Below are positions 13,771 to 64,000 of a stretch of DNA of 64,000 nucleotides, in pieces. The stretch spans positions 190,647 to 254,646 of the forward strand of contig CAYYSI010000001.1 of NCBI GenBank assembly GCA_964474435.1, in the 5' to 3' direction. The notes below the pieces were generated by a model. The model was not told the origin of the DNA, ran no database searches, and saw nothing but the letters and a program-made list of their open reading frames with translations. Each line of letters starts with the position of its first letter. Position 1 is the first letter of the stretch. The position numbers were made by a program, and so were the translations under genes. This DNA is from an uncultured Candidatus Saccharibacteria bacterium (GTDB lineage Bacteria > Patescibacteriota > Minisyncoccia > Phycocordibacterales > UBA9973).

Positions 13771-13806
13771 AAAGGCTATCGATATTACGATAGCCTTTGT
13801 TTTTTA
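13771..13806 (+). terminator. Rho-independent terminator
   Basis: AAGGCTATCG / CGATAGCCTT stem followed by TGTTTTTTATT. Confidence 0.7.
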
Positions 13807-13855
13807 TTCAACTTCTTTTTCAATAGCTTCAGAAAACTTTTGGGGTGCGTATTTT

Positions 13856-14302: not shown

Positions 14303-14448
14303 AAGATTTAGCTAAGAGAAACCTCCGGCTTTTGTTGTCTTCGTTATTCTCCCTATACAGTGTCGTAAAAGATATATTGTGCGACGTTACTATATTTTAG
14401 AGGATAGACCGACAAGGCCCTTCTCCCTCTCGATATTGGGGTTGAAAT

Positions 14449-41985: not shown

Positions 41986-42249
41986 ATGTATTATATATAC
42001 GTTTTGAAAAGTAAGAAGGATCTGAAATATTATTATGGTCTTACTGTTGACTTAGGTAAAAGAGTAAGAGAACATAATAATGGTTCTGTAAAGTCGACCA
42101 AACCAAGAGCACCTTTTGAGTTGATATATTTTGAAACAACAGAAACGTTGCCAGATGCACGTAAGCGTGAAAAATATTTCAAAAGTGGTTTTGGAAGAAA
42201 ATACGTGCAGGGTAAAATTAAAGACATGGCCCCATCGTCTAACGGTTAG
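41986..42249 (+). CDS. GIY-YIG nuclease superfamily small protein
   Basis: MYYIYVLKS...YYYGLT...R...EHN motif. The 3' end overlaps tRNA-Glu by 22 nt. Confidence 0.65.
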   Translation: MYYIYVLKSKKDLKYYYGLTVDLGKRVREHNNGSVKSTKPRAPFELIYFETTETLPDARKREKYFKSGFGRKYVQGKIKDMAPSSNG

Positions 42250-42299
42250 GACGAATCCTTCTCAAGGATTAAATCGGAGTTCGATTCTCCGTGGGGTCA
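42228..42299 (+). tRNA. tRNA-Glu (anticodon CTC)
   Basis: Cloverleaf with acceptor stem GGCCCCA/TGGGGTC, D-arm TCGTCTAACGGTTAGGAC, anticodon loop TTCTCAA and T-loop TTCGATT. Confidence 0.8.
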
Positions 42300-42308
42300 C
42301 AGCAACAA

Positions 42309-42349
42309 GAAAACACGCCATCATGCGTGTTTTCTCTAAGTTGTTTTCA
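42309..42349 (+). terminator. Rho-independent terminator after tRNA-Glu
   Basis: GAAAACACGC / GCGTGTTTTC stem with a T-rich tail. Confidence 0.65.
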
Positions 42350-42358
42350 TATTGAATA

Positions 42359-42520
42359 ATTAGAGTACAGTAATCCCCATTGCCCCAAGGACTGAACGTA
42401 CCTTGGTGAGACCTTTGGTCATTGAACCCTTTTTGTAGCCGAGTCGCCGGGCTACTGCGATCAGATTGAGCTTCCCCGTCATCCATCGACGCTGGAGAAG
42501 CTTTTGTTGTTTGGTAAGCA
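42359..42520 (-). pseudogene. Possible remnant of an HTH-containing protein (53 aa ORF: MLTKQQKLLQRRWMTGKLNLIAVARRLGYKKGS...)
   Basis: Short ORF below the 60-aa cutoff with an HTH-like segment, next to a tRNA. Possible transposase or regulator fragment. Confidence 0.2.
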
Positions 42521-42706
42521 TTGTGTAGATAGATAGTTACTAATAATGTAAGTACTAGTACCGTTCATACCTAGCCAAATAGCTATGTGTACCAACTGAT
42601 GTTGATAATTTCTCCTCTTATTTTCATTAATGTACCGATGTTATCTCTAGTATTTCATACTGATTTTCCCGCGCAACCACACGCTGGGGAAAAATGAAAA
42701 TAATGC

Positions 42707-43450
42707 TTGTATATCAAGGGACTTTCTATTTTTTATTTTCGTGGTATGCTGCAGAAAAATGATCTTTATATGAAACAAACACAACTCTTTTTCCCTCAGT
42801 ATGCAATACCGACCTCTACACAACTACATGGCAATGTACTGTATTACCTCACCGGACTCTTGGATGCTGACTGGTATATCGATGGTATAGATATGATCAA
42901 TACCTACGATCCAGGCTGCTCTATTGCTTCTTTCAAGGATTATCCCGAAGACCATGCCCGACTACAAAGGTATGTCGTCCGAAAAAACACTTTTATTCCT
43001 TATGCCAATAAAAACGAATGGGATACGATCACGACCAGTTTAGCTGCGCAACATGGCGTAGTGCTCGTATGGATTCATAAGGATACTGATCAGTACAAAG
43101 CTGTTGCCGAACTTACGACATTGATCAGCTCACTCGTTGAGCAAAAGCGTACTCAGAAAAAAGATTTGGAGATTTCGTCACTACCAGTATTTCAAATAAA
43201 TATTGTTATTGGTATCGAAGACTCTCGTCAGGCCAAGGCGTTGGAACAACAGTTAAGTTTCAAGTATGGCAAAAGGTTCCCAGTACACACAACCCTGACA
43301 GCTACCGTATCTCACACTATCAATCTCCAAAAACTACAGCGCTTAAAAGCTATTGAGCGATCTATCTCTTTGGAGAAATTTGAACGATTTAATGCATTTG
43401 TCACTCGGTACAAACTTAAAAGAAAAATTGCTGGCACTACCATACGGTAG
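42707..43450 (+). CDS. Hypothetical protein (247 aa)
   Basis: ORF in an AT-rich stretch. A 14-bp direct repeat (GGTAGTGCTTTTTA) occurs twice at 43445-43492, just downstream. Confidence 0.4.
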   Translation: MYIKGLSIFYFRGMLQKNDLYMKQTQLFFPQYAIPTSTQLHGNVLYYLTGLLDADWYIDGIDMINTYDPGCSIASFKDYPEDHARLQRYVVRKNTFIPYANKNEWDTITTSLAAQHGVVLVWIHKDTDQYKAVAELTTLISSLVEQKRTQKKDLEISSLPVFQINIVIGIEDSRQAKALEQQLSFKYGKRFPVHTTLTATVSHTINLQKLQRLKAIERSISLEKFERFNAFVTRYKLKRKIAGTTIR

Positions 43451-43489
43451 TGCTTTTTAATTAAAAAAACACTACGTGGGTAGTGCTTT

Positions 43490-43738
43490 TTATACTAGTA
43501 CTATGCAAGCATGTTTGGGAAATCCAAGTAACCCTCCTTTTATTTTTTCTTCATAGTACTCTACGGCTTTTATTTTTCCTGCATATTTTAATGCAAGCAT
43601 TCCTGATGAAAATGCTATCTGACGATTATATGTTTCAACACAAGGAATAGTGTATTGAATATCTACATTAATCCATGCAGTTTTTATATATTCTGGAAAT
43701 GGACCGTACAGTGCTTGAGTAATTCGAAGCTTTGCCAT
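43490..43738 (-). CDS. Hypothetical protein (82 aa)
   Basis: ORF only. Confidence 0.3.
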   Translation of the reverse strand: MAKLRITQALYGPFPEYIKTAWINVDIQYTIPCVETYNRQIAFSSGMLALKYAGKIKAVEYYEEKIKGGLLGFPKHACIVLV

Positions 43739-43788
43739 GTTGTATCAATTTTGATTCGATACTACCTATTTAAGAGGGATAAGTCAAT

Positions 43789-44454
43789 TTAGAGCTCTGC
43801 AGGAATCTCAACTGGTTGTTCAACGATTGCTTGGGGTGCAGCAGTTTGGTACTGGGCAAGAAGTATGACATAGAGCTTGGCGACGAGAATACTTGCAAGC
43901 GGGTATGCAATGAGAATACCGATACCGAGCGCAATAAATCCGAGAATGTAGAGTCCCACAGCAATCAGCATCACCCAAAATATTTTCCAGAAATGACCTT
44001 TTGTCATATTCCATGAAAACCGAAGTGATGCGCGAACACCTTCTTTGCGATCAAGGTAGGAAAAGTTGCTAAATGATAACCGAACTGCGACATAGATTCC
44101 TGGAAGAATAAGGAGAATAAATCCGCACAATGTAAGAAGGCCACCAAGAATAGCGATGCCGATAATCGTCAAAAACTCTCGCACACTTGGAAGCATGTCT
44201 TGGATTGAACCAATGAGGAGTTTGCCTTCATCATTGCGTGCGGCCGCGAGCGACACCTTCATCCATACGATCGCCCACACCATTGATGCAATACCAATAA
44301 CACACGAAAGGAGCCATGGGATATGTGTGCTGTTGCCTGTAATACCCAAAGCGATAGATATAGTAGAAACCGTCAGGAAGAATTTGAGATGTTTCTTAAA
44401 GAGTGCCCAAGCCTCTCTGAGTGTGCTGCCAATAGAAAAAGTGAATGTGTTCAT
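43789..44454 (-). CDS. Polytopic membrane protein (DUF975-like)
   Basis: Six predicted TM helices. Sits downstream of ftsI. Confidence 0.45.
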   Translation of the reverse strand: MNTFTFSIGSTLREAWALFKKHLKFFLTVSTISIALGITGNSTHIPWLLSCVIGIASMVWAIVWMKVSLAAARNDEGKLLIGSIQDMLPSVREFLTIIGIAILGGLLTLCGFILLILPGIYVAVRLSFSNFSYLDRKEGVRASLRFSWNMTKGHFWKIFWVMLIAVGLYILGFIALGIGILIAYPLASILVAKLYVILLAQYQTAAPQAIVEQPVEIPAEL

Positions 44455-53694: not shown

Positions 53695-54015
53695 TTATTT
53701 CGTTTTTACAATCTTGAACACCATTGGAGGTTTCTGTGCAAATGTCACCTTCAAAAAATACAGCCCTGATGCAAACCCTTTCATGTTTATAGACCTTGTC
53801 CCGGAAACATATCCACTGTTTCCAATGGGATACCCTTTTGCATCGCAGAGTTGGACAGCAAATTCGTGAGGTGTGTTTGGATAAAGATTTAAAAGTTCCT
53901 GGGTCGGATTTGGCCCAACTTTCATACACACTGTATCAGCAGGGATAGTAGCCGCAAAAACGAATTCTGTGCACACAATGAGTATGCAGAGAAAAAAGAG
54001 CGTAAACTTTTTCAT
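53695..54015 (-). CDS. Small secreted protein with a C-terminal sorting-tail-like segment
   Basis: Signal peptide. C-terminus GLYFLKVTF...KIVKTK resembles Por/T9SS-type C-terminal target domains. Confidence 0.35.
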   Translation of the reverse strand: MKKFTLFFLCILIVCTEFVFAATIPADTVCMKVGPNPTQELLNLYPNTPHEFAVQLCDAKGYPIGNSGYVSGTRSINMKGFASGLYFLKVTFAQKPPMVFKIVKTK

Positions 54016-54093: not shown

Positions 54094-54414
54094 CTATTTG
54101 ATGACTGGGTGCGGGACGTTGATGACTTCCTTAAAGAATGTTACAAATACAGTATTTTTGCCTTCCGTCACAAAGTCACCGTTGAGTGAGCAGGTATATG
54201 CAACGGTCTCTCGGTAGCCAAACGGGATCTTTTCAAGACTGGTTGTTTCGATCGAGAGATTGCAGCCTTCTTGGAGCTTTTGCTGGTTTTCATACACACG
54301 TGCATAGATGAGTTGCTTCGCCTCAGTCATTTCAAACCATGGGCACCATGCGAGAACGACGAGCCCTACAAATATGAGAAATAAAAATCCTTTCATAGGG
54401 TAAGTATAGCGCAT
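54094..54414 (-). CDS. Hypothetical small membrane protein (106 aa)
   Basis: ORF with an N-terminal TM helix. Confidence 0.35.
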   Translation of the reverse strand: MRYTYPMKGFLFLIFVGLVVLAWCPWFEMTEAKQLIYARVYENQQKLQEGCNLSIETTSLEKIPFGYRETVAYTCSLNGDFVTEGKNTVFVTFFKEVINVPHPVIK

Positions 54415-54419
54415 CTACA

Positions 54420-54665
54420 AAATAGCAACAGCTTTTTATTGTGGTCAGGGATTACTAAATCTAGGACCCTAGGAATTCGCCCGCGAGTCAAAGTCTGCGG
54501 ACTTTGCTCTGATAAATAGGTTTTTTGTTGTGGTCAGGGATATTTTGCTCGTCAGTCACTCACAAAATTCCACGACCCTGCCTCGATCGTTTTGCCTGCT
54601 GGCAAAACATATCTCCGGCTTCCCCATGTAAGAAAAAACCACGAGCAGTCGTGGTTTTTTCTTCA
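54420..54665 (+). ncRNA. Candidate small structured RNA / repeat-containing non-coding element ending in a rho-independent terminator
   Basis: Two copies of TTGTGGTCAGGGA (54439, 54519). Hairpins CAAAGTC-TGCG-GACTTTG and GTTTTGCC-TGCT-GGCAAAAC. Terminator AACCACGAG-CAG-TCGTGGTT plus T-run at 54632-54663. No plausible ORF. Confidence 0.35.
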
Positions 54666-54814
54666 TGTGGACTTGGGAACTCATTTCTGGAACCGATTTG
54701 CTACAGAATGTGATTACTTAATGATGATTATGCGAGAATATAACGCTGATAAGATAAAATAAAAAGGACCCATCACGAATGACAGGTCCTTGAGATAATT
54801 TGTTGCTAAAAATA

Positions 54815-54850
54815 GAAAACCCACCGAAGTAGATTTTCTACTGGGTGGGT
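54815..54850 (-). terminator. Rho-independent terminator for the 163-aa gene
   Basis: CCCACC...GGTGGG extended hairpin followed by a U-run on the minus strand. Confidence 0.6.
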
Positions 54851-54857
54851 TAAATGA

Positions 54858-55349
54858 TTAAGCCCAAGAACCATTTCCTGTTGAAGTTAAAAGAGCAATT
54901 CTATCTGACTCAACTTGCATTGCTTCCTCATAAGAATTGTCCAAACAATCAGTGTTTTCCATATTTACTCTATAGATACACACATCATCGTTTTCAACAA
55001 CATAATTGTCATAAAAGTCTTGATACTTTCTTTTGTTTATTACAATGATGTGAGATGGTTTTGTAAGATAATCTTTATAAATTGCTTTGTATAAATTATC
55101 TTCATTTTCAATGTTCACATCACGAATACCCAATTCAATGCTCCAAACTTTATACTGAACAGAAAGTGTAATTTTCCCTGTCTCCGTATCCTCTGGTTCA
55201 TAATGAGGGATTTCTAAACTCCCATTATCTTGCATAAATCTTACAGTTCTTTCAAACTGATAATTTGCACCAGATTGAACGTCTCCTTTTTGTTCAGCCT
55301 TAAAAATGCGTGAAAGTGCTGACTTTCCAATTTGCGAAATAGTTTTCAT
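54858..55349 (-). CDS. Hypothetical protein (163 aa), first gene of the low-GC island
   Basis: ORF only. ~32% GC. Confidence 0.4.
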   Translation of the reverse strand: MKTISQIGKSALSRIFKAEQKGDVQSGANYQFERTVRFMQDNGSLEIPHYEPEDTETGKITLSVQYKVWSIELGIRDVNIENEDNLYKAIYKDYLTKPSHIIVINKRKYQDFYDNYVVENDDVCIYRVNMENTDCLDNSYEEAMQVESDRIALLTSTGNGSWA

Positions 55350-55485
55350 TTTTCAAAGAATTATACCGCAACGTGCGATGCCGAAATAATTTGTTTCCTT
55401 TGTGGCATTCAGGGAGTTTCTCCATTCACCCCATATCTACTAATCAAGGAAGTAGAATAACCTTATGGGTAGTATAGCACAATCG

Positions 55486-55520
55486 CTTGACAATGTCAAG
55501 TATTTGTGATACACTATTCC
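55486..55520 (+). promoter_or_regulatory. Putative promoter/operator: perfect palindrome CTTGACA-a-TGTCAAG overlapping a -35-like TTGACA, followed by TACACT
   Basis: Seen directly in the sequence, upstream of the 92-aa ORF. Confidence 0.35.
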
Positions 55521-55599
55521 TAATGGTGCGTTATGCCCGTTCGTATATGAGGGGTCGTAATCCTCAATAGTTCTTCAAAACAATTTAATACTAATCGTT

Positions 55600-55878
55600 A
55601 TGATTATTACTTATCGTATTACCGAAGGTCCGTCAAAGTTTGACTTAATGTCTAGTTTGTTTGATGGAAAAGTTGTTCAGTTTACTCAAGAAATTGAGTC
55701 AAATAAAAAGACAATCAAAGCTACCATTACCGCAATTGAAATGGAAGATGGAAGCCACGACTCTTGGAACATAAAAATGTTAGTAAGGGAAAGCAATACA
55801 ACTTCAATCCAAGTTGGAAGAAGTTTATCGGCTTATTACAGTAGCCGAAACAGACAAGGCAACATCAGGCTGAGTTAA
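55600..55878 (+). CDS. Hypothetical protein (92 aa)
   Basis: ORF only. Confidence 0.35.
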   Translation: MIITYRITEGPSKFDLMSSLFDGKVVQFTQEIESNKKTIKATITAIEMEDGSHDSWNIKMLVRESNTTSIQVGRSLSAYYSSRNRQGNIRLS

Positions 55879-56035
55879 TAATAATTTTTATAACTACTGG
55901 CATCTCTCCAGTAATTGTCATAGACAAGAGAAAATATAACTCAAGACCCTTATCTTTATAGATAAGGGCTTGTTTATTTTTACCCCACACTATGCATCAC
56001 TATTCTTTAGGAGTTTCCCGACATTATAGGAATAT

Positions 56036-56227
56036 CTATTTATCCAGTTTATCACTGTTATCCTTATTGATTTCGGTGATATTTTTGTTTTTTATTTCAT
56101 CTAACCACATATTGAAAAATATATCAGCCGTTTGTTCCATATTGTCTTTAAGTTTGATTATCTGTTCTTCCGTAAGCTCCTTTGCTTCATCTCCCAAACT
56201 ATTTTTGAACTCTTGAAGTGTCATCAT
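56036..56227 (-). CDS. Small hypothetical protein (63 aa) downstream of res
   Basis: ORF only. A second ~53-aa ORF (56197-56357, minus strand) starts with a TAATG overlap on the res stop codon. Confidence 0.3.
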   Translation of the reverse strand: MMTLQEFKNSLGDEAKELTEEQIIKLKDNMEQTADIFFNMWLDEIKNKNITEINKDNSDKLDK

Positions 56228-56356
56228 TTTCTTTTATAGGTTTATTATAATTCTCTGGGTTTTGTTTCCTGTCTTCTTTTAGGAGCCAAGAAAAAACATT
56301 GACGACATTTTGTCTTTCTTCTTCGGTCCAAACCTTAGGTTTTCTTAGGTTGTCCA

Positions 56357-58900
56357 TTAGAGAGTTTTAATCATCTCAAATAGTTCTCTCTGTCTTTCTT
56401 GCAGATGAGCATCAAATACAATCTTGTATTCAAAATCTTTATTTACTTTCTGAAAATCTAAGAAGCCAAGCTCTTTTGCAAACACTTCATTAAATAATGA
56501 TGTGTTAGTTCCATCGTAGCGTGTCTTATTTGCTTCATATTCTGTTTTCTCGGACCCAGATTTTACCTCTACTACTAAGAACCTCCCCTTATCTGTTTCT
56601 ATAAGAAAATCTGGGAAATACTTTGATATACGCTGTTCGGCAGGGTTCCAGTATTCAACATAGAAATCGTTATGTGCATCAGTCGTAATACCACCAGTAA
56701 AATAAACATCTTTAATTATTTCATTTTTATCCAAAAGCTGTCGCATATTCTTGAACAAATCTCGTTCATCACTACTATCAAAATTGTAAGGATTGATATG
56801 AAAACCAATACGGCTAGTAGCTCCGCTTGCTTCTTCTTTTTCTTTGAAGACAACAAGAGCTTTTTTGCCCTCCTCTCTGCTCATCTTGAATGGGTATTCC
56901 TTTGTGAGTTCAATTTCTTCTTCGGTGGTTGTCTCTGTCTCCGTATACTGATAAACAGTCTCAAGAACAGTTTGAATAATAAAAGGCAAGAACCCCACAC
57001 TTGTATTCACTTTATTTACCAGTTCACTCCTAGATAATCCTATATTTTCTGATAATTGTCCTACTGCCAAACAAGATAAATGAGTATAGCGATTTATAAG
57101 TTCTACGATTTCATAGTAGGTGTATGAGTTTGTCTCCTTGAGTTTCTTTGAACCGACTGTGTCTTGCTTGAGCACTGCTTTACCAGAAGCATCCATCACA
57201 AGCTCTGAACCCAAGATATAGTGCTCATATTTTTCTGCTTTGTATTTCTTAATATCAATCTTGATGTCGTTTATATTTCTTGCCTCTGTGGCGATAATAT
57301 CTCGGATAAGTTTTTTTACTTTAATGGTTTTTTTCTTTTCAACTTTGATTTCAAACTCAAAACTCTCTTGCTCTTGATTGTTGATGTCTTGAATACTTGA
57401 GGCAAAGTTATTCTTGAGTTCTTTATCTAGGACCTTATAATTTTCTCGTGATAGGAATATGTGAGCTCGTGTAGAATTGTCTCCAATAGAACGCATACAG
57501 CGGGTGGATGCTTGAAGCACGAAGATTGAACTAGATGGTTTACGATATAAAGCACACGCAACGAGAGAGCGACAGTTCCATCCCTCTGTCCCTTTACCAA
57601 CAAGAAGCACAAATTGCTTTTCACTTTCTATTGTATCCAACATCCGAAACTCATCTTTATTATTTTCAGCTTCGGTGTGATATTCAAGAACTTTATCAAT
57701 CGGTATACCCATCTCGGTAAGAACTCTCTCAATACGGGGCTTGAGTTCGTTTCGTAGATTTTCAATGTTTGGAGCATAAAAAGCCATTTTAGGTAGACGA
57801 CCCTCAAGACGATTTTCTTTATATTCGGACCAAAAAGTAGAGAGAACTTCTTCAATAAAAACATTTGAACGGACCTCTCCGAAATCTAGTATTTTCACTT
57901 GCTTCAAGATACCTTTCTCTATTCCTTGCTTGAGCCCGAAATGGTAAACAACATCATCTATCATTCTATTGTTTATATAAGGCGTTCCTGTAAGGTTTAC
58001 AACGCCCACGAGTGGAGTATTGCCGTGTAAATAATCAATCGTCTGGCGTGTTTTCTTCAATGCACCCTCAAGATTTACACCATAGGAATGGTGGGCTTCA
58101 TCAACAAATATGACAAGGTTATTGAGCTCTCGGATGGCACGGAGACGAGCATTTTCTACTTCACGCTTTGCGAGTTCATTTTTATCACCAAATAGTTTTT
58201 TTACCCCACCATCCGTATCACTATTTCTTGTCTTGAGTATTATCTTTTGTGAGTTTGAGACGATGACATTGTAATTACCAATCGGAGAGAGCCCAGTTTC
58301 AGTGCTCTCTAAATAATGATACTTAATGTTAAGTAAAATGTTTTGATATTCTTTTGGTAGGACCTTTGAGTAATCAAAAGTTTTTATTTCTTTCAAACTT
58401 TCTATAATAGTCGTATCGGGAGCAAACACGAGAGCGTTCTTAGCGAAGCGTTTATCATCAGAATGATAATAAGAAAGCACAAAATCGTATATTAAAAATG
58501 TCGCCATTAAAATGGTTTTACCAGAACCCATCGTCAGTGCATATACTTGGTTCGCATAATTTTGAGCACCAAACTTTTCTTTAATGATTTCGGATATTTG
58601 CTCATCACGATTATTGGCTTCCATAATGTCAGAAATTGTTCTCTCTGGCACACCTAAAGAGCGGAGTAAATCAGATTTCTTTGTGAAAGCATCTTGAAAA
58701 ATCTCGCTTGTTGGTTTATTTTTCAAAATCTCTTTTATGTAGATATAAGTTTCAAGAGCTTCAATTTGTGGTTCGTGTAAAAAGCCGACACGCTTTACAT
58801 AATTCAAAATGTTTACACTCTCTTTGAATGCTTCTTTATAGCCGTTTTCTTTCCACTCGGATACTTTACCTTTTATATTTTCAAGAAATGTATTCTCCAT
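56357..58900 (-). CDS. res: Type III restriction enzyme, Res subunit (SF2 helicase + PD-(D/E)xK nuclease)
   Basis: Walker A TMGSGKT and DEAH-like FVDEAHH. C-terminal PDFLIETD...EVK nuclease motif. 847 aa. Confidence 0.8.
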   Translation of the reverse strand: MENTFLENIKGKVSEWKENGYKEAFKESVNILNYVKRVGFLHEPQIEALETYIYIKEILKNKPTSEIFQDAFTKKSDLLRSLGVPERTISDIMEANNRDEQISEIIKEKFGAQNYANQVYALTMGSGKTILMATFLIYDFVLSYYHSDDKRFAKNALVFAPDTTIIESLKEIKTFDYSKVLPKEYQNILLNIKYHYLESTETGLSPIGNYNVIVSNSQKIILKTRNSDTDGGVKKLFGDKNELAKREVENARLRAIRELNNLVIFVDEAHHSYGVNLEGALKKTRQTIDYLHGNTPLVGVVNLTGTPYINNRMIDDVVYHFGLKQGIEKGILKQVKILDFGEVRSNVFIEEVLSTFWSEYKENRLEGRLPKMAFYAPNIENLRNELKPRIERVLTEMGIPIDKVLEYHTEAENNKDEFRMLDTIESEKQFVLLVGKGTEGWNCRSLVACALYRKPSSSIFVLQASTRCMRSIGDNSTRAHIFLSRENYKVLDKELKNNFASSIQDINNQEQESFEFEIKVEKKKTIKVKKLIRDIIATEARNINDIKIDIKKYKAEKYEHYILGSELVMDASGKAVLKQDTVGSKKLKETNSYTYYEIVELINRYTHLSCLAVGQLSENIGLSRSELVNKVNTSVGFLPFIIQTVLETVYQYTETETTTEEEIELTKEYPFKMSREEGKKALVVFKEKEEASGATSRIGFHINPYNFDSSDERDLFKNMRQLLDKNEIIKDVYFTGGITTDAHNDFYVEYWNPAEQRISKYFPDFLIETDKGRFLVVEVKSGSEKTEYEANKTRYDGTNTSLFNEVFAKELGFLDFQKVNKDFEYKIVFDAHLQERQRELFEMIKTL

Positions 58901-58904
58901 AGCG

Positions 58905-60668
58905 TTATGCGGTTATTTCAAAAGTTTCAAAACATTCTTCTCCGAGAACATCTACAATTTTGACTGCTACGGTATATTTGCCTTTCTTTGAATACTCCCA
59001 AGTGTAGTCAGCTTTGACGAGCTCACGCTTTGTTGGTAGGTCCATAATCTCCGCATTGAATAGGTCGCCAGTATAATCTACATCAATCGCCACACTATCA
59101 ATAATCTGACGGAAATCTTCTACTTTCGCTTGGTATTCTTTCTTGATGGCTTTACTATTTTCAATCTCTAATTTTCGCATCAGTATCGGTGAATAGAACT
59201 CTTTGAGTGATACAGAAAGTTTTTTATCTTTAGCTTTGACTGTAATCATCGCTTCTGGTGGCTTCTTGAATACAAGATTTTTCTTGTCTGTGGTAATATC
59301 TCGGACATCAATTTTTACTCCTGTTTTATTTTCCTTTTTAAGATAATCAGCGACTTCAAGGTCCATACCAGAACAGATAACAAGGACACCCTCGTCATAT
59401 ACTGGCTCGCCAGATTTTGATTTCTTTTTTACTGTAAAATCAGCGAGTTTATCACTAACATTTTTTAGTAAAGTTTTCATATCTAGCTTATTGAGAACTC
59501 TGTTCATAGGCATTACCTTTACATAGGAAGTATCAAGCACACCATCAAAATAGCTTCGCTTCATTGGTTCTACTCCATACATCTCCATTACTATTTCTTT
59601 CGCTTCAAGCTCGTTCTTAAACGCCGTATATTCATTCACATTAAGAACCTTGAAACCAGTGGCACCTTTTTGCTCATCAATAATCTGATTAAGTCGTTTT
59701 GTAGAAGTTTGTATTGCTCCGAGATTTATGTCGCATCCAATCCATCTGCGACCTAGCTTTTGAGATACAGCACAAGTGGTCCCAGAACCAACAAAACAAT
59801 CAAGAACTAAATCACCCTCATTTGATGCGATGTTTATAAGTAGTTCTAGTAGTCCCTCTGGTTTTTGTGTAGGATAATCTGTTCTTTCGCTTGATAGGTT
59901 TAATACAGGTCTAGTATTAAAAGTTATAATCTTACCATCTTTATTTACTGTATTTATCAATCCCTCAAAAACATCTCTCAAGATTGTGTCTACATAAAAA
60001 CGACCCTGTTCATCTTGTAAACTACCCATAAATGATTTCTCAAGATACTGTCTTTCACCTTGACTGTGAACTTCAAAGGTATTATTTTTTCTATAAAAAA
60101 GAATTGTGTCGTGCTTTTTAGGTAAGCTCTCTTTTCTTGAAGCACCACCAGAGCGATATGACCAAACTATCTCATTTACAAAATTATCTTCACCAAAAAC
60201 TTCGTCCATAGTTAAACGTAAATGTGAGTTTTTATGCCAATCGCAATGTAAATAAATTGCTCCTTTATCAGAGAGTAATTCTTTCAGAATTAAAAGGCGT
60301 TCATACATAAATTGAAGATACTCATCTTTTTCCCAAATATCTCCATATTGCTTTTCTTCAAGCAAACTATGATTTTCTCCCTCAACTTTTTCTCCCTTAA
60401 ATTGTATTTTGCGAATATAATCAGCTTTACTATCAAACGGAGGGTCTATATATATTAAATCTACTTTGCCACGATACTCTTTGAGTAAATGTGCAAGAAC
60501 TTGGAGATTATCTCCCCAAAATAATTTATTAAAATCTGGCGACTTTTTATTACCATATATTTCTTTTTCTTGAGCAGGATAATACTCAATACTCTCCAAA
60601 GGTTTCTTGCCAGCCCATACGAGCATAGCCCTGCCTTTGGCTTTTTCTATTGATTGTAATTTTTGCAT
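58905..60668 (-). CDS. mod: Type III R-M DNA methyltransferase, Mod subunit
   Basis: VDLIYIDPPF catalytic motif, AdoMet-binding region, and a central target-recognition region. Immediately upstream of res. Confidence 0.8.
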   Translation of the reverse strand: MQKLQSIEKAKGRAMLVWAGKKPLESIEYYPAQEKEIYGNKKSPDFNKLFWGDNLQVLAHLLKEYRGKVDLIYIDPPFDSKADYIRKIQFKGEKVEGENHSLLEEKQYGDIWEKDEYLQFMYERLLILKELLSDKGAIYLHCDWHKNSHLRLTMDEVFGEDNFVNEIVWSYRSGGASRKESLPKKHDTILFYRKNNTFEVHSQGERQYLEKSFMGSLQDEQGRFYVDTILRDVFEGLINTVNKDGKIITFNTRPVLNLSSERTDYPTQKPEGLLELLINIASNEGDLVLDCFVGSGTTCAVSQKLGRRWIGCDINLGAIQTSTKRLNQIIDEQKGATGFKVLNVNEYTAFKNELEAKEIVMEMYGVEPMKRSYFDGVLDTSYVKVMPMNRVLNKLDMKTLLKNVSDKLADFTVKKKSKSGEPVYDEGVLVICSGMDLEVADYLKKENKTGVKIDVRDITTDKKNLVFKKPPEAMITVKAKDKKLSVSLKEFYSPILMRKLEIENSKAIKKEYQAKVEDFRQIIDSVAIDVDYTGDLFNAEIMDLPTKRELVKADYTWEYSKKGKYTVAVKIVDVLGEECFETFEITA

Positions 60669-60729
60669 AGTGTGGGCAACCCTATGACTTGAAGTCCGTT
60701 ATTTATAATAAAAAAACCAAAATGGACAC

Positions 60730-60870
60730 CCCAAGACAGGTGCCCACAAGCTGACAACAAACGTCGCCAATCCTGTATTCCTGCTTAGAATGTCCATTCT
60801 AGACAGGATTAGCGACAAAGAGCTGTCAGCTCTAATTTATATATCAACTTGTGGGCATATAAACTATACC
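60730..60870. repeat. Large nested imperfect palindrome in the mod / 808-aa-gene divergent intergenic region
   Basis: Outer arms GCCCACAAG...CTTGTGGGC, middle arms TCGCCAATCCTGT / ACAGGATTAGCGA, inner CTTAGAATG-t-CCATTCTAG. Confidence 0.55.
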
Positions 60871-60943
60871 AAAAATTACTTAATTTTCATAGTAAAAAAT
60901 GGTAGAATGTTGATGTTTTTAAGATAAATTACAATTACACTAT

Positions 60944-63370
60944 ATGTCTAAAATAAAACCGATAGACGATGAAGACGATAAATCAATTTGGGATGGGATA
61001 GATTTTTCAAATAGCCAGAACAAACTCTGGTTCTCTATTGATTTCTTGGGAAGGATTGGGATTTTGGAAGAAAAGGAAATAACGAAACTCAAAAAAGATG
61101 ATATAGATTATTTGCTTGTTGGGGTTATTAAACAAGAGTATCAGAAAGGCGGAAAGAAAAAGTTTGAAATTATTCACACTACAACAACATTGGACCTTAT
61201 AAGTGGAGATTTCCAAATACAAAAAACAAAAACTATTTCTATTGAAGACATCAAAAAAGATTACGAGGAAACTCTATTTCATATTTATATTGAAAGCATT
61301 CAATCTCCACAATCAGAGATTTTGCGTTTCGTGAAAGGTTCTAATTTTCTCAAAGTTTCAACTCAAAAAATTGAAGGAAATCTTTTGTTTCTTTTAATGA
61401 AGAATAAACTTGATGACATAATCCCGAACTATGATGATGATTACTGGCATAAGTCATTTATTCTACGAAAAATCTTGGACCTTTATGATGAAAAGCCAGA
61501 GAAATTGATGCTTGCAAAACAAGAATATGTTGAGCTTTATTTTGAGAAAGAAACAAATCTGCTCAAGAGGTTTAATCTTGCAAAAAAAGTGTTGATGAAA
61601 AATCCTAAATACGAGCCAGCATTGAAAGCTACTTTTGATTACTACACAAAGTCAGACAATCAAGAGATTGAGGATTTCAAAAAGTTTTACAATGAGAACT
61701 ACGAAGAATTGAAAAGTGTCCTCCATTCAAACGATTTTATTCGCCTGTCTTTTGTTTTCTTTTTGAAAAGCAAACAGTTTGATATGTGTGAGGAGCTACT
61801 GAAAAGAGAACTTATTATTCATACCCCGTGGAACTATTTGAAAGATAATATCAACTCATACTTGCGAGGTGTTCTATATTACGAACAAGAAAACTATAAC
61901 GATAGTTTGCGTTATTTCAAGGAAACTGTTGAGAATGTTGGGGATACAGAATTGCTCTTAGGATGCCACATCTATATGTTTTCTATCTATTTGAAACTCA
62001 AGGATGGTATTGGTATTGAGAATACTCTATCCCATATGTGCAGACAGATTGAAAGCATAACTATGAACGATTATTTTGTATTTCAAATGGAACTACCAAC
62101 AAAACAATTCTTTCTTGATGAAATCCAATATGCAATCAAAAATAATGTCAGCGACAAAACTAGGTTGACGGCAATTTATCTTTTCAAGAAGTTTCTTTAC
62201 CAAGACGAGACTATATTGTCAGAAAATAATAGAAAAGAGATTGAAGAGCTACTCAATGAAATAAAGAAGAACACAAAAGAAAATCTCTTTGACCTATACC
62301 TACTTGCTCACGGATATTATCGTATAGACCAATATGACAATGCTGTTATCTATAAGCTCAAGTATGTTCTTACTGGTGGAAAAGAATGGATTTTTACTGA
62401 TATTGCAGAATGTAGCGAGGACTTTTTGTATGACTATGCAACAACTATCAGAAATGAAATCACAAAACCACCAAGTCGTGATGTGCGAGTAGAAAGATAT
62501 TTCAAGGAGATGTTCAGCAAAGACATTGAAGAACTTTTCAAGAAAAAACAATACGACACAATTTCTGATATTTACTCTTTGCTTGAGGGTCCAGCATTGG
62601 AACTATTTTTCTGTCCCGAAGAACTTGAGGACGGATATACTTTCTTTGATAGAAGGTTTGAGGTTGCCTATTCTCTCAATGAGGTGGAGAAGACGAATGA
62701 AGCTCAAAAGGTTTACGAGAGCATTGAGGACCCAAGTTCTTCAGTATTGAACAATCTTGCTTTGATATACGAAGGACAAGGAGATATAAAGAAGGCAAGG
62801 GAAACTATCACAAGAGCCATTGAACTAACTGATGGAAAACAAGAACTAATAAACAGAAATAAAGAAAGGATGTTCTCTGTGAAGAAAAGCAATACTCTAA
62901 AAAACAAAAGAGCCGAAGTAGCTCAAAAACCAAAACTGAACTGGTCCGATATTGAAATCAAGTTTACAGATGATAATAACATTGAAATCTATACCAAAGG
63001 AAAACTCTCAACCAAAGGTGATTATGAAACTTTTGGCTTCAAAAAACCGAACAATATATCTTGGGAGATACTACGGGCACTTTCAATCACTAAAACCAAA
63101 ATAAAAGGAAATATGGAGTTTTATTTGACCCCAGATAATATGTTCAGCAAAGATGCTTTCAAATATAAAACTAACAAGAAAAATCTATTCCAAAAATATA
63201 AATCAATTTTATCAAAAGCACTGTGTGAACATTTTGATATAACAGAAGAACCAATACCTTTTGATAAAGCCGTGCAGGGATACAATCCTCTATTAAAAAT
63301 CACTCCAGAGAAGGACTTGAGAAGTCTTGAAATACAAGACACCAGAGCATCAGAATACACTGAAATATAA
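60944..63370 (+). CDS. Large hypothetical protein (808 aa), alpha-helical with TPR-like repeats
   Basis: Long ORF, ~30% GC. TPR-like segment (VLNNLALIYEGQGDIKKARETITRAIEL). No catalytic motif recognised. Divergent from the Type III R-M operon. Confidence 0.5.
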   Translation: MSKIKPIDDEDDKSIWDGIDFSNSQNKLWFSIDFLGRIGILEEKEITKLKKDDIDYLLVGVIKQEYQKGGKKKFEIIHTTTTLDLISGDFQIQKTKTISIEDIKKDYEETLFHIYIESIQSPQSEILRFVKGSNFLKVSTQKIEGNLLFLLMKNKLDDIIPNYDDDYWHKSFILRKILDLYDEKPEKLMLAKQEYVELYFEKETNLLKRFNLAKKVLMKNPKYEPALKATFDYYTKSDNQEIEDFKKFYNENYEELKSVLHSNDFIRLSFVFFLKSKQFDMCEELLKRELIIHTPWNYLKDNINSYLRGVLYYEQENYNDSLRYFKETVENVGDTELLLGCHIYMFSIYLKLKDGIGIENTLSHMCRQIESITMNDYFVFQMELPTKQFFLDEIQYAIKNNVSDKTRLTAIYLFKKFLYQDETILSENNRKEIEELLNEIKKNTKENLFDLYLLAHGYYRIDQYDNAVIYKLKYVLTGGKEWIFTDIAECSEDFLYDYATTIRNEITKPPSRDVRVERYFKEMFSKDIEELFKKKQYDTISDIYSLLEGPALELFFCPEELEDGYTFFDRRFEVAYSLNEVEKTNEAQKVYESIEDPSSSVLNNLALIYEGQGDIKKARETITRAIELTDGKQELINRNKERMFSVKKSNTLKNKRAEVAQKPKLNWSDIEIKFTDDNNIEIYTKGKLSTKGDYETFGFKKPNNISWEILRALSITKTKIKGNMEFYLTPDNMFSKDAFKYKTNKKNLFQKYKSILSKALCEHFDITEEPIPFDKAVQGYNPLLKITPEKDLRSLEIQDTRASEYTEI

Positions 63371-63511
63371 TTGATTGACTGAAGTTTTCAGCGAGATGTA
63401 AAGACAAAAACTACTTGAAATATAGTGGTTTTTTCTTTTGGGCTGATTTTTCAGCATATAAGGTGAGAGCAGGAACACTCTCAACATTATAAATTATTAA
63501 GCAAAAATTAT

Positions 63512-63799
63512 ATGCAAAAAGCACATAAAACAAAAAATGACTTTGAGTATATCCAGTCAGAAAACTCAAAAGAGTTTTTTCAAAGTGCAGATTTAGGTCT
63601 CGCTACCGCACTATGTTGTAGAGGATACAGTCTCATAACATTAGACAAACAAGACCCTCGTAAGGTTTCTTTTATATTCAAACGAGAGGTCGGGATAGAA
63701 GAAGATGCCGATGCTTATTGGTCCAATGAATTGGAAACCAAAGCACGGAATTATTTTGATAATTTGCGAACATTAAAAAATCGCATCTACTCTGAATAA
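63512..63799 (+). CDS. DUF5659-like small protein
   Basis: 95 aa with the LATALCCRGYSL...VSFIFKRE...AYWSNE pattern, typical of small phage/plasmid-associated proteins. Confidence 0.4.
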   Translation: MQKAHKTKNDFEYIQSENSKEFFQSADLGLATALCCRGYSLITLDKQDPRKVSFIFKREVGIEEDADAYWSNELETKARNYFDNLRTLKNRIYSE

Positions 63800-63824
63800 A
63801 TTACTCACCAATAAATTACAATAT

Positions 63825-64000
63825 ATGACTACAAAAATAACTATACAAGAATATCTCTCACAGAAAAGCATTACCTATCGTGAGAGCGGACAGGAACTCA
63901 TTACGAAGTGTATATTCAATGACTGTGATAGAGATAGTGGCGAAAGCGAAGCACATCTTTATTTCAACAAAGATACCTCGCAATATGAGTGTAAAAAATG
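63825..64000 (+). CDS. Primase-like protein, N-terminal CHC2 zinc finger (partial, continues beyond the window)
   Basis: CIFNDCD...EAHLYF...YECKKC resembles the zf-CHC2 motif of DnaG/phage-type primases. Confidence 0.45.
   Translation, partial: MTTKITIQEYLSQKSITYRESGQELITKCIFNDCDRDSGESEAHLYFNKDTSQYECKK

What the first reader, a model, noticed from the sequence alone, without database searches (positions are those of the whole stretch)
54700..64000. Low-GC mobile/defence island carrying Type III R-M, orphan small ORFs, DUF5659 and a primase
GC drops to ~30-33% from ~54.7 kb. The cargo includes mod-res (Type III), several hypothetical ORFs, a DUF5659-like protein and the start of a CHC2-zinc-finger primase. 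Such primases are typical of phage, plasmid and integrative-element replication modules. This implies a horizontally acquired element with defence cargo, with the integrase or replication module beyond the window.
Basis: partly seen in the sequence, partly recalled or inferred. Interest (0 to 1): 0.55.

Follow-up and report, generated by a model that had tools for sequence, protein, structure and literature searches.

The report
Serine-integrase defence island in a CPR bacterium
The low-GC stretch is the left two-thirds of a 14.1-kb mobile element that a serine integrase has inserted at the very end of a tRNA-Ala gene of an ultra-small (Patescibacteria/CPR) bacterium. It carries a Type III-like restriction-modification system and belongs to a large family of such elements for which my literature searches found no description.

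Summary

**Composition.** From window 54,673 onward GC is 34.5%, against 45.3% for the 14-54.6 kb background. Tetranucleotide distance is 0.39-0.48, against 0.13-0.18.

**Extent.** A Logan contig identical to the window (L001) continues past 64 kb. It shows the whole element is 14,104 bp and ends in a large serine recombinase (LSR) abutting tRNA-Ala.

**Gene order.** Small ORFs, res, mod, an 808-aa TPR protein, DUF5659, a Toprim primase with a P-loop-like C-terminus, three small ORFs, then the LSR.

**Ends.** Both ends are defined to the base by an 8-bp core, ATGTGGAC (attL 54,665-54,672). Host-flank and element contigs from the same sample break exactly there. An independent JGI contig (L026) joins the right end to the left end, which is the attP junction.

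**Integrase gene.** The LSR gene spans attP. Its last 29 codons lie at the element's left end (54,673-54,762). Integration replaces them with antisense tRNA sequence.

**Host and family.** The host is a Paceibacteria-like CPR bacterium. Relatives in other CPR genomes keep the backbone DUF5659-primase-p191-LSR-tRNA but carry different defence cargo.

**Weak point.** Mod is a good Type III Mod. Res has the right architecture but no detectable similarity to characterised Type III Res.

**Verdict.** A real, probably active integrative element: a new variant of a known kind.

The parts
54633..54660 (-). Host terminator hairpin (A6-CCACGA-GCAG-TCGTGG-T6). In the empty site it would follow tRNA-Ala on the minus strand. 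It is host DNA, not part of the element.
   Evidence: Sequence read directly. It lies in the 30 nt shared by flank contig L018 and element contig L001. Its role as the tRNA terminator is inferred.
54665..54672 (.). attL core ATGTGGAC, the 8-bp identity block shared by attL, attR and attP. TGGAC is the reverse complement of the last 5 nt of tRNA-Ala.
   Evidence: L018 ends at 54,672 and L001 starts at 54,643, a k-1 overlap. The three-way alignment of attP (L026), attL (window) and attR (L001) is. The core occurs only once on the + strand of the window.
54673..54762 (+). Detached 3' end of the serine-recombinase gene: 29 codons plus stop, LGTHFWNRFATECDYLMMIMREYNADKIK*. It is joined to the rest of the gene only in the excised (attP) form.
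   Evidence: Reconstruction. The protein in JGI contig L026/P0076 is identical. The same tail is conserved, with synonymous changes, at L004:869-959 and at the L005 contig end. The motif FWxxFAxExxYLxxIL recurs in intact homologues.
54764..54791 (.). 12-bp-stem hairpin with T-runs, 2 nt after the tail's stop codon. It is a likely bidirectional terminator for the recombinase gene in circular form (+) and for the 163-aa ORF (-).
   Evidence: Terminator scan. The function is inferred.
54858..55349 (-). 163-aa ORF, no family hit.
   Evidence: It is called as a gene in Logan contigs. It is absent from relatives.
55471..55515 (.). Face-to-face sigma-70-like promoters (11/12 and 10/12 matches, both with TG) sharing the palindrome GCTTGACAATGTCAAGT, between the divergent 163-aa and 92-aa ORFs.
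   Evidence: This is a consensus match only, and the total number of promoter-like sites in that region was not above the shuffle mean.
55600..55878 (+). 92-aa ORF, no family hit.
56036..56357 (-). Two small overlapping ORFs (63 aa at 56,036-56,227; 52 aa at 56,199-56,357) directly downstream of res.
   Evidence: Weak homologues occur in relatives: the 52-aa ORF in L004, and the 63-aa ORF after the primase in L006 and L014.
56357..58900 (-). res: 847-aa SF2 helicase-nuclease. It has GSGKT at 125-129, DEAH at 267-270, and a C-terminal PD...EVK motif at 763-780.
   Evidence: Pfam ResIII 1.8e-9. NCBIfam BPTD_3080 restriction endonuclease matches in part, 2e-21. More than 4,500 homologues were found; those that carry an organism name are CPR, and some sources call them 'type III restriction enzyme'. 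There was no PADLOC REase hit and no PDB sequence hit. The structure model was too poor to use.
58905..60668 (-). mod: 587-aa beta-class N6-adenine methyltransferase. DPPF is at 75, FVGSG at 292, with a swappable target-recognition domain at about 161-280.
   Evidence: N6_N4_Mtase 1.4e-46. PADLOC MTase_III 3.2e-73. EcoP15I Mod 4zcf_A 1.7e-22. Motifs are and the TRD mosaic.
60741..60857 (.). 14-nt inverted repeat TGCCCACAAGCTGA / TCAACTTGTGGGCA in the divergent mod/TPR intergenic region. It is a possible operator.
   Evidence: L001 6099-6112 and 6202-6215. The function is not tested.
60944..63370 (+). 808-aa TPR-solenoid protein of unknown function, occupying the variable cargo slot between mod and DUF5659.
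   Evidence: TPR_2 2.4e-10. No PADLOC or PHROG hit. The family is rare: 104 hits at E<=1e-3 among 1.84 billion representatives. AF2 gave pLDDT 70.9 with a helical repeat at 190-645. Foldseek returned only generic TPR proteins. The same slot holds a reverse transcriptase in L011 and other genes elsewhere.
63512..63799 (+). 95-aa DUF5659 protein, the first gene of the conserved backbone. It is always found just upstream of the primase.
   Evidence: PF18903 1.7e-8. It is conserved in L004, L005, L010-L013, L017, L023 and L027.
63825..64000 (+). First 58 codons of a 723-aa primase: a Cys4 zinc ribbon, followed beyond the window by a Toprim domain and a P-loop-like C-terminal domain.
   Evidence: Toprim_2 1.4e-11; phrog_47 and phrog_239, about 1e-23.

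Best explanation
Window 54,673-64,000 is the left 9.3 kb of a 14,104-bp integrative element in a Paceibacteria-like CPR bacterium.

**How it moves.** A large serine recombinase, encoded at the right end beyond the window, recombined attP with the extreme 3' end of a tRNA-Ala(UGC) gene. The crossover lay inside the 8-bp identity ATGTGGAC, so the tRNA stays intact.

**The split integrase gene.** Because attP lies inside the recombinase gene, integration separates the gene's last 29 codons, now at 54,673-54,762. In the integrated copy they are replaced by about 18 codons read from the antisense of the tRNA. Excision restores the full gene on a circle.

**Likely replication (inferred).** The excised circle is probably replicated by the element's own module of DUF5659, a Toprim primase with a P-loop-like C-terminal domain, and the conserved p191 protein.

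**Cargo.** The left arm carries a mod-res operon of Type III architecture. It presumably methylates host and element DNA and cleaves unmodified incoming DNA, giving defence and/or post-segregational stabilisation of the element. A rare TPR protein sits in a slot that holds other defence-type genes in relatives.

**Shown versus inferred.** Shown: the boundaries, the attL/attR/attP relationship, the split recombinase gene, the family distribution and the cargo variability. Inferred: autonomous replication, restriction activity, the function of the TPR protein and small ORFs, and the route of cell-to-cell transfer.
For: **Composition.** GC and tetranucleotide shift at 54.7 kb.

**Extension beyond the window.** L001 is identical to the window from 54,643. 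It continues to a primase, three small ORFs and a Resolvase+Recombinase protein. It ends 27 nt inside a sequence identical to the tRNA-Ala(tgc) of L007.

**Junctions.**
- Host-flank contig L018 from the same sample ends at 54,672. Element contig L001 starts at 54,643. L001's right end stops 30 nt after the first base shared with the predicted empty site. This is the pattern expected from a k=31 graph that holds both occupied and empty sites.
- JGI contig L026 joins the element's right end (829 nt, 11 mismatches) to its left end across ATGTGGAC. Its protein equals the reconstructed circular-form C-terminus.
- The L005 contig ends in the same kind of junction.

**Integrase tails.** Among the 120 best LSR homologues, at least 62 end in tRNA-antisense peptides and at least 13 in the element-coded FWxxF...YL..IL tail.

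**Target sites.** In the twelve related loci scanned, a tRNA gene was found in ten and lies just downstream of the recombinase wherever one was mapped: Ala, His, Met or Asn.

**Host.** The named GatB relatives, at 71-77% identity, are Pacebacteria, Nomurabacteria and Paceibacterota.

**Horizontal movement.** Element proteins are 85-91% identical to those in L005, while GatB on that same contig is 74% identical.

**Restriction-modification.**
- Mod best matches Type III Mod, with a swapped TRD.
- Res has helicase and PD-(D/E)xK motifs and follows mod after a 4-nt gap.
- The pair rides on LSR+primase elements in Uhrbacteria and Nomurabacteria genomes too.

**Cargo in relatives.** An Eco57I-type methylase with an SNF2-PLD helicase, HsdM with an AAA_15 ATPase, a reverse transcriptase, CBASS, and Peptidase_U49.
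Against: **Sequence not seen.**
- The window's own sequence beyond 64 kb could not be retrieved. The right end rests on an identical Logan contig. The identity of the tRNA rests on a 27-nt match plus relatives.
- No contig with the empty site was recovered. An exact 22-mer search of JGI contigs found nothing. The empty site is inferred from contig ends, and that inference assumes Logan contigs come from a k=31 graph (my own knowledge).
- The attP contig is 98.7% identical, not 100%, and comes from another sample. A tandem array would give the same junction as a circle.

**Res.**
- Res shows no sequence similarity to EcoP15I Res or to any PADLOC REase_III model.
- The structure model was unusable: pLDDT 57.8, Foldseek TM about 0.1-0.15.

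**Replication.**
- No iterons or obvious origin were found.
- The Walker A-like motif in the primase is non-canonical.

**Transfer.** No transfer or packaging genes were detected.
Confidence: 0.85

Rival explanations
1. Phage satellite (PICI-, PLE- or P4-like). The element excises and replicates only when a helper phage infects. It hijacks the helper's capsids using functions hidden among the unannotated ORFs, and its defence cargo protects the host population.
For: The size is in the range of known satellites (14.1 kb). The layout is integrase plus primase plus many small unknown ORFs, and the cargo is defence-type. A divergent promoter pair sharing a palindrome between the 163-aa and 92-aa ORFs resembles a repressor switch. 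Vibrio PLEs also use an LSR (own knowledge).
Against: No PHROG hit other than primase and integrase. No terminase small subunit, capsid-remodelling or packaging homologue was found. A scan of IMG/VR with patterns from the primase found only one distant (26%) relative. Known phages share only 22-29% partial primase identity. No helper phage is known.
Confidence: 0.15
2. Integrative mobilisable or conjugative element. After excision it is transferred by a conjugation-type apparatus, either its own or one borrowed from another element.
For: Recombinases 75-76% identical to this LSR sit in elements with TrwB/TraG-like coupling ATPases, ArdC and RadC (L020, L022).
Against: This element has no relaxase, coupling protein or T4SS hit in Pfam, NCBIfam or PHROGs. 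No oriT was identified.
Confidence: 0.15
3. Decayed prophage remnant or fixed, immobile defence island that merely keeps a foreign composition.
For: Low GC and many orphan ORFs. A degenerate tRNA-Ala fragment 190 bp to the left suggests older events at this site.
Against: All ORFs of the backbone are intact and 85-91% identical to copies in other hosts. An attP junction of a 98.7%-identical copy exists in a metagenome. Contig breaks indicate that empty and occupied sites coexist. There are no phage structural genes.
Confidence: 0.03
4. Assembly or binning artefact: a foreign contig wrongly joined to a CPR chromosome.
For: The source is a metagenome-assembled genome. Relatives of the element are also found in bins labelled Chitinophagales, Gammaproteobacteria and Verrucomicrobiales.
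Against: Two independent Logan contigs (L001, L002) carry 30 nt of host flank contiguous with element sequence. The junction has the att structure expected of site-specific recombination. Relatives sit inside long CPR contigs of 80-350 kb next to tRNA genes.
Confidence: 0.02

Closest known systems
tRNA-targeting genomic islands / integrative elements with defence cargo (general class)
   Same: Foreign composition. An integrase at one end next to an intact tRNA gene. A short direct repeat at both ends. Variable defence cargo on a conserved backbone.
   Different: The integrase is a large serine recombinase rather than the tyrosine integrase usual at tRNA sites (own knowledge). The shared core is only 8 bp at the very 3' tip of the tRNA. 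The host is a CPR bacterium.
Staphylococcal cassette chromosome (SCCmec) elements
   Same: LSR-driven, non-phage, non-conjugative islands of 10-60 kb. They insert at the 3' end of a conserved gene, carry their own replication proteins (helicase/primase-type), and have variable cargo. CcrB is the best NCBIfam match of the LSR, 6.7e-23.
   Different: The Ccr score is far below the family cut-off (81 bits against 900). There is a single LSR instead of a CcrA/CcrB pair. The target is a tRNA, not rlmH. The primase is Toprim-type. The integrase gene spans attP.
SSV-type integrases of archaeal fuselloviruses and integrative plasmids
   Same: attP lies inside the integrase gene and the target is a tRNA gene, so integration partitions the int gene (own knowledge of SSV1 and its relatives).
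   Different: Those are tyrosine recombinases split into two large fragments. Here a serine recombinase loses only its last 29 of 526 residues. It keeps the Resolvase and Recombinase regions that Pfam detects, and gains a tRNA-antisense tail.
Type III restriction-modification systems (EcoP15I, EcoP1I)
   Same: The gene order is mod then res. Mod is a beta-class N6-adenine methyltransferase similar to EcoP15I Mod (1.7e-22) with an exchangeable TRD. Res is an SF2 DEAH helicase with a C-terminal PD-(D/E)xK motif.
   Different: Res is not detectably homologous in sequence to characterised Type III Res. It belongs to a separate family whose named members are CPR, partly matching NCBIfam BPTD_3080. 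Two small ORFs follow res.
Phage-inducible chromosomal islands and Vibrio PLE satellites
   Same: 10-18 kb in size. They combine an integrase and a primase/replication module with small ORFs, and often carry defence genes. PLE uses an LSR.
   Different: No packaging or capsid-redirecting genes are recognisable. No helper phage is known. There are no close relatives in the viral collections searched.

Membership tests
Integrative genomic island (site-specific) | Discrete ends with attL/attR sharing a core, and a matching attP (and attB) | tested here: met
   The core ATGTGGAC is present at attL (window 54,665-54,672), attR (L001 14,127-14,134) and attP (L026). attB is inferred from contig ends only and was not recovered.
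Integrative genomic island (site-specific) | Encodes its own integrase adjacent to an end | tested here: met
   The LSR at L001:12,644 onward overlaps attR.
Integrative genomic island (site-specific) | Atypical composition, and patchy distribution relative to host phylogeny | tested here: met
   for composition. Element proteins are 85-91% identical, against 74% for GatB on the same contig as the L005 copy.
Large serine recombinase (integrase) | N-terminal resolvase catalytic domain with the nucleophilic Ser, followed by the recombinase domain | tested here: met
   Resolvase 4e-27 and Recombinase 1.1e-10. The motif is AVIYVRVSTKEQ. phrog_95 integrase scores 4.4e-67.
Large serine recombinase (integrase) | Zinc-ribbon/coiled-coil domain; 2-bp staggered crossover; RDF-dependent excision | not tested
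   Zn_ribbon_recom is on record only for the LSR of relative L027. The crossover can only be placed within the 8-bp core. The conserved 75-94-aa ORF upstream of the LSR is an untested RDF candidate.
Type III R-M | Mod: beta-class N6A methyltransferase (motif IV, then TRD, then motif I) related to EcoP15I/EcoP1I Mod | tested here: met
   DPPF at 75 and FVGSG at 292. PADLOC MTase_III 3.2e-73. 4zcf_A 1.7e-22. TRD mosaicism.
Type III R-M | Res: SF2 helicase motifs plus a C-terminal PD-(D/E)xK nuclease, encoded directly downstream of mod | tested here: met
   GSGKT, DEAH at 267 and PD..EVK at 763-780. Pfam ResIII 1.8e-9. There is a 4-nt gap between mod and res. This is motif-level evidence only.
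Type III R-M | Res homologous to characterised Type III Res subunits | tested here: not met
   No PADLOC REase_III hit. No PDB hit with the sequence or with a 6-sequence profile. The AF2 model was too poor (pLDDT 57.8) and Foldseek returned only generic SF2 helicases at TM 0.1-0.15.
Type III R-M | ATP-dependent cleavage needing two inversely oriented unmethylated sites; hemimethylation by Mod | not testable with these tools
   This needs biochemistry or methylome data.
Prophage | Capsid, tail, terminase, portal and lysis genes | tested here: not met
   PHROGs hit only the primase and the integrase. Pfam found nothing structural. 14.1 kb is too small for a tailed phage.
ICE / IME | Relaxase/oriT, coupling protein, T4SS | tested here: not met
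   None found in this element. TrwB/TraG-like proteins occur only in other elements with related LSRs.
Phage satellite (PICI / PLE / P4-like) | Helper-dependent induction and packaging functions | tested here: inconclusive
   No recognisable packaging genes. Eight ORFs are of unknown function, so absence cannot be shown.
DnaG/zf-CHC2 primase | CHC2 zinc finger (PF01807) plus Toprim catalytic core | tested here: inconclusive
   Toprim_2 1.4e-11 and dnaG domain 5.4e-14. DnaG cores in the PDB match at 7e-6. PF01807 did not hit, and the ribbon is Cys4, as in T7-type primases.
SCC (Ccr) elements | CcrA/B or CcrC recombinases above the family cut-off, with rlmH as target | tested here: not met
   CcrB scores 81 bits against a cut-off of 900. 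The target is a tRNA.

The most novel reading that the evidence does not exclude
The element represents a CPR-wide class of self-replicating serine-recombinase elements for which I found no description. These would be a main vehicle of defence systems in the tiny CPR genomes. Their integrase would be remodelled by its own reaction. Only the excised form makes the full-length enzyme with the conserved C-terminal amphipathic tail (FWxxFAxExxYLxxIL). The integrated form carries a tRNA-antisense tail instead. This swap could act as a built-in sensor of integration state that tunes directionality, stability or expression of the recombinase. A secondary possibility is that the rare 808-aa TPR protein, which sits in the variable cargo slot, is a new antiphage gene.
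Probability: 0.2. Interest if true: 0.75.

Novelty: new variant of a known kind. Interest (0 to 1): 0.55.

Why it matters
**CPR biology.** CPR/Patescibacteria make up a large share of bacterial diversity. They have genomes of about 1 Mb, mostly lack CRISPR, and are thought to rely on restriction-modification (PMC12455944). That study predicted genomic islands in them with IslandViewer4, and its main text never mentions integrases or recombinases. This locus gives a base-precise example with attL, attR and attP. It also anchors a family with more than 1,600 integrase homologues and more than 4,500 Res homologues, in which defence cargo is exchanged on a constant backbone.

**Recombinase mechanism.** Two features are unusual for serine integrases: a tRNA 3' tip as target, and an integrase gene that spans attP. 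Both are directly testable in vitro.

**Tools.** The attP/attB pairs could become genetic tools for CPR bacteria, which currently have almost none.

Tried and rejected
**Retrieving the window's own sequence past 64 kb.** The window's own 353-kb NCBI contig could not be fetched. It is listed, but look-ups return only Logan and ENA contigs.

**Recovering the empty site.**
- An exact-match search for the predicted empty-site 22-mer in JGI contigs found nothing.
- The look-up of the 106-aa flank ORF at 54,094-54,414 failed, probably because the called start differs. The neighbouring ORF worked.

**Showing that Res is a Type III Res.**
- Sequence against the PDB: no hit.
- A 6-sequence profile against the PDB: only UvsW helicase, at 8.5e-4.
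- AF2 with 26 homologues: pLDDT 57.8.
- Foldseek: generic helicases at TM 0.1-0.15.
- All of these are inconclusive.

**Finding a function for the TPR protein.**
- PADLOC, PHROGs and NCBIfam gave nothing useful.
- An exhaustive HMMER search found only a rare family.
- Pfam on ten homologues found TPR repeats only.
- AF2 and Foldseek gave a generic TPR solenoid.

**Looking for an origin of replication.** The search for iterons found no convincing array.

**Other checks.**
- Circularity of contigs L020 and L023: no terminal overlap.
- Rfam on the whole window: only the two tRNAs.
- Prophage reading: rejected.
- Literature searches for CPR serine-recombinase elements and for DUF5659: nothing.
- The weak resemblance between the element's left end and the tRNA body was examined by eye and dropped as unconvincing.

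Full report

Yes. In 1-kb windows GC falls from mostly 0.39-0.51 (14-54 kb) to 0.32-0.365 from 55 kb to the end of the window. There are single dips inside the background, at 51-52 kb (0.348) and 48-49 kb (0.385).

Pooled values are 34.5% for 54,673-64,000 and 45.3% for 14,001-54,600. The tetranucleotide L1 distance to the 14-54.6 kb background is 0.39-0.48 for island windows and 0.13-0.18 for background windows.

- mod at 58,905-60,668(-): N6_N4_Mtase 1.4e-46.
- res at 56,357-58,900(-): ResIII 1.8e-9.
- A DUF5659 protein at 63,512-63,799(+): 1.7e-8.
- The first 58 codons of a primase from 63,825.
- Several ORFs without any family hit.

The genes to the left are ordinary chromosomal genes: mraZ, mraW, two PBPs, greA, a SIMPL protein and an MGMT-type DNA-binding protein.

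**2. Extending beyond the window.**

A look-up of the 808-aa protein returned Logan contig L001 (14,156 bp, sample SRR13208889). L001 is identical to the window from 54,643 and runs 4.8 kb past the window end. Beyond the window it encodes:
- The rest of a 723-aa primase: Toprim_2 1.4e-11, and phrog_47 and phrog_239 at about 1e-23.
- ORFs of 143/153, 191 and 90 aa.
- A large serine recombinase (LSR): Resolvase 4e-27, Recombinase 1.1e-10, phrog_95 'integrase' 4.4e-67.

The LSR's true start is L001:12,644, reading MNAINYSNHKRAVIYVRVSTKEQ.

**3. Boundaries.**

*Right end.* L001 stops 27 nt inside a sequence identical to the 3' part of the tRNA-Ala(tgc) gene of locus L007. In L004 and L007 the same LSR, 86-90% identical, abuts tRNA-Ala(tgc).

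*Left end.* L001 and L002, from two samples, both start at window 54,643. The host-flank contig L018, from the same sample as L001, ends exactly at 54,672.

*Interpretation of the contig ends.* The 30-nt overlap, and the 30 nt at L001's right end, are what a k=31 assembly graph produces when the host flank continues both into the element and into something else. That Logan contigs come from a k=31 graph is my own knowledge. The inferred alternative continuation is the empty site ...CTTCATGTGGAC|CCTAGGAGATTCGAAC....

*The three sites.* The shared block is ATGTGGAC.
- attL is window 54,665-54,672.
- attR is L001 14,127-14,134.
- The element is therefore 14,104 bp at 35.5% GC.

*Direct confirmation.* JGI contig L026 (951 bp, metagenome 3300045429) consists of three parts in order. 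First come 829 nt matching the element's right end with 11 mismatches. Then comes the core. Then comes the element's left end as in window 54,673 onward. This is the attP junction. The L005 contig ends in the same type of junction.

*What was not recovered.* I could not recover an empty-site contig. An exact 22-mer search of JGI contigs found nothing.

**4. The integrase gene spans attP.**

In the integrated state the LSR reading frame runs across attR into the antisense strand of the tRNA. In L004 the ORF is 13,019-14,566 and the tRNA is 14,504-14,577. The resulting tails look like ...VDPRRFELLTFALQKHCSTS.

In the attP form the frame continues into the element's left end, window 54,673-54,762. 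It encodes LGTHFWNRFATECDYLMMIMREYNADKIK followed by a stop. A strong hairpin follows 2 nt later.

Three lines of evidence support this reading:
- The tail is conserved with synonymous substitutions in L004 and L005.
- It is found verbatim in protein P0076, encoded by L026.
- Among the 120 best of more than 1,600 LSR homologues, at least 62 end in tRNA-antisense peptides and at least 13 carry the element-coded motif FWxxFAxExxYLxxIL. By eye the second number is nearer 30.

Integration therefore swaps the last 29 of 526 residues. Whether the swap matters functionally is untested.

In L004 the LSR 3' coding region, read on the tRNA strand, forms a terminator-like hairpin right after the tRNA. 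The equivalent in L001 is weaker and was not detected by the scan.

**5. Host and family.**

*Host.* GatB from the window (32,600-34,021) has as its closest named relatives, at 71-77% identity, proteins from Candidatus Pacebacteria, Nomurabacteria and Paceibacterota. The host is therefore a Paceibacteria-like member of the Patescibacteria/CPR.

*Distribution.* A scan of species-representative genomes with the primase found 14 loci. Eight are in MAGs titled as Patescibacteria lineages, four in 'uncultured bacterium' bins, one in a Chitinophagales bin and one in a Gammaproteobacteria bin.

*Conserved backbone.* The order is DUF5659, primase, (p143), p191, (p90), LSR, tRNA. The LSR subtype and target tRNA vary: Ala, His, Met or Asn. 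In L014 a tRNA-Glu lies downstream of the primase, but no recombinase was mapped there.

*Mobility across hosts.* Element proteins are 85-91% identical between the window and L005. GatB encoded on the very same L005 contig is only 74% identical. The element has therefore moved between lineages more recently than the hosts diverged.

*Not a known phage.* A scan of the IMG/VR viral contigs with patterns from the primase found only one 26%-identical relative. Deposited phages share only 22-29% identity over part of the primase.

**6. Cargo.**

*Mod.* It best matches Type III methyltransferases: PADLOC MTase_III 3.2e-73 and EcoP15I Mod 4zcf_A 1.7e-22. It has the beta-class motif order, with DPPF at 75 and FVGSG at 292. 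Residues about 161-280 are only 10-45% identical to relatives whose flanks are 80-100% identical, which is the signature of TRD exchange. L012 keeps the same TRD.

*Res.* It follows mod after 4 nt. It carries GSGKT, DEAH at 267 and a C-terminal PD...EVK at 763-780.

Res has no hit to PADLOC restriction models, to EcoP15I Res or to any other PDB sequence. It has only a partial match to NCBIfam BPTD_3080. Its AF2 model was too poor to use.

Its family has more than 4,500 members. Those that carry an organism name are CPR, and some sources label them 'type III restriction enzyme'.

I therefore call the system 'Type III-like': the architecture is met, and Res homology is not shown.

*The pair on other elements.* The same pair rides on an identically organised element in Uhrbacteria (L027). 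It also rides on a different LSR/Prim-Pol element in a Nomurabacteria genome (L029, L030). That element splits a Mg-chelatase-family gene, which I take to be ComM-like. It also carries Peptidase_U49 and a CBASS operon.

*Other cargo in relatives.* An Eco57I/TaqI_C methylase with an SNF2-PLD helicase, HsdM with an AAA_15 ATPase, and an ABC-F ATPase. In L011 a reverse transcriptase sits in the slot where the window has the TPR protein.

*The TPR protein.* It belongs to a rare family: 104 hits at E<=1e-3 among 1.84 billion representatives. It is modelled as a TPR solenoid over residues 190-645, with a separable C-terminal alpha/beta domain. Its function is unknown. Its position makes a defence or regulatory role plausible but unproven.

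**7. What kind of element is it?**

- It is not a prophage, because it has no structural genes.
- It is not an ICE or IME by the usual markers.
- Elements with 75-76% identical LSRs do carry TrwB/TraG-like ATPases, ArdC and RadC.
- A satellite lifestyle cannot be excluded.

The closest analogues are listed below.
- *SCC-type cassettes.* They combine an LSR, their own replication proteins, and insertion at the 3' end of a conserved gene. CcrB is the best NCBIfam match of the LSR but far below cut-off.
- *SSV-type archaeal elements.* Their integrase gene is partitioned by integration into a tRNA gene (own knowledge).

Literature searches found general reports of genomic islands and R-M in Patescibacteria (PMC12455944). 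They found nothing on serine-recombinase elements of CPR or on DUF5659.

**8. Verdict.**

It can be sharpened to a 14.1-kb LSR-driven element, probably self-replicating, inserted at tRNA-Ala.

It is a new variant of a well-known kind. The unusual points are the CPR host, a serine integrase that targets a tRNA tip, and an integrase gene remodelled by its own integration.

Interest is moderate (0.55). Confidence in the main explanation is 0.85.

Noticed in passing
window 54,439-54,541: About 190 bp left of attL lies a degenerate copy of the tRNA-Ala 3' end: GGACCCTAGGA-ATTCG at 54,464-54,479, matching 16 of 17 positions. The 14-mer TTGTGGTCAGGGAT occurs twice, at 54,439-54,452 and 54,528-54,541. 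These may be scars of earlier integrations by a different element at the same tRNA.
   Followed up: partly
window 1-14,000: The first 14 kb are also compositionally off: GC 40%, and tetranucleotide distance 0.22-0.30 against 0.13-0.18. They nevertheless encode metabolic genes (NAD synthase, nicotinate phosphoribosyltransferase, an MQO-like oxidoreductase). No mobile-element marker was looked for there.
   Followed up: partly
window 55,471-55,515: Two near-consensus promoters face each other. One is TTGACA-17-TATACT, the other TTGACA-17-TACACT, and both have TG. They share the palindrome GCTTGACAATGTCAAGT. They lie between the divergent 163-aa and 92-aa ORFs and look like a genetic switch.
   Followed up: no
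window 58,905-60,668 (Mod residues ~161-280): The target-recognition domain of Mod is exchanged between otherwise 80-100% identical alleles. It is 10-45% identical to L004, L005, L011 and L027. Only L012 shares the same domain. This implies different methylation specificities in sister elements.
   Followed up: yes
window 53,695-54,015: A 106-aa secreted-looking protein matches the T9SS C-terminal sorting domain, Por_Secre_tail, at 3.8e-7 and above the Pfam cut-off. This is unexpected in a CPR genome, because T9SS is regarded as specific to Bacteroidota.
   Followed up: no
window 60,741-60,857: A 14-nt inverted repeat, TGCCCACAAGCTGA ... TCAACTTGTGGGCA, with arms 89 nt apart, lies in the intergenic region between the divergent mod and TPR genes. 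It may be an operator for controlling R-M expression.
   Followed up: no
L022:9,751-13,117 (JGI contig of 205 kb): A 75%-identical LSR with an intact element-coded tail sits inside a long contig. It lies between TrwB/TraG-like ATPases on one side and RadC and ArdC on the other. Its core is mutated (GTGGAC to GTGCGC), and no tRNA was found in the locus. It may be an immobilised element or one that integrates differently.
   Followed up: partly
L029 / L030:5,747-22,544 (Nomurabacteria GCA_001786145.1): A Mg-chelatase-family gene, which I take to be ComM-like, is split by an element. The element carries a 61%-identical Res with its Mod, Peptidase_U49, a Prim-Pol/PriCT/AAA_25 primase, another LSR, and a CD-NTase + Cap15 CBASS operon.
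   Followed up: partly
L011:7,080-9,335: A 751-aa reverse transcriptase (RVT_1, 5e-19) occupies the slot between mod and DUF5659, where the window has the TPR protein. This suggests the slot is a hotspot for defence genes.
   Followed up: partly
L004:14,472-14,491 (minus strand): A terminator-like hairpin, AAGAGGCA-GAAA-TGCCTCTT followed by TTGCTTTG, lies immediately 3' of tRNA-Ala but inside the LSR coding sequence on the other strand. The element appears to supply a new terminator for the tRNA it has captured. The equivalent in L001 is weaker and was not detected by the scan.
   Followed up: partly
window 42,228-44,000 and L014: The window has a tRNA-Glu(ctc) next to a low-GC patch (39%) near mraW and the PBP gene. 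In L014 a related primase element sits beside tRNA-Glu(ctc) with mraW and PBP homologues nearby (43-47% identical), though the tRNA has a different orientation. I did not examine whether the window's site is empty or holds a remnant.
   Followed up: no
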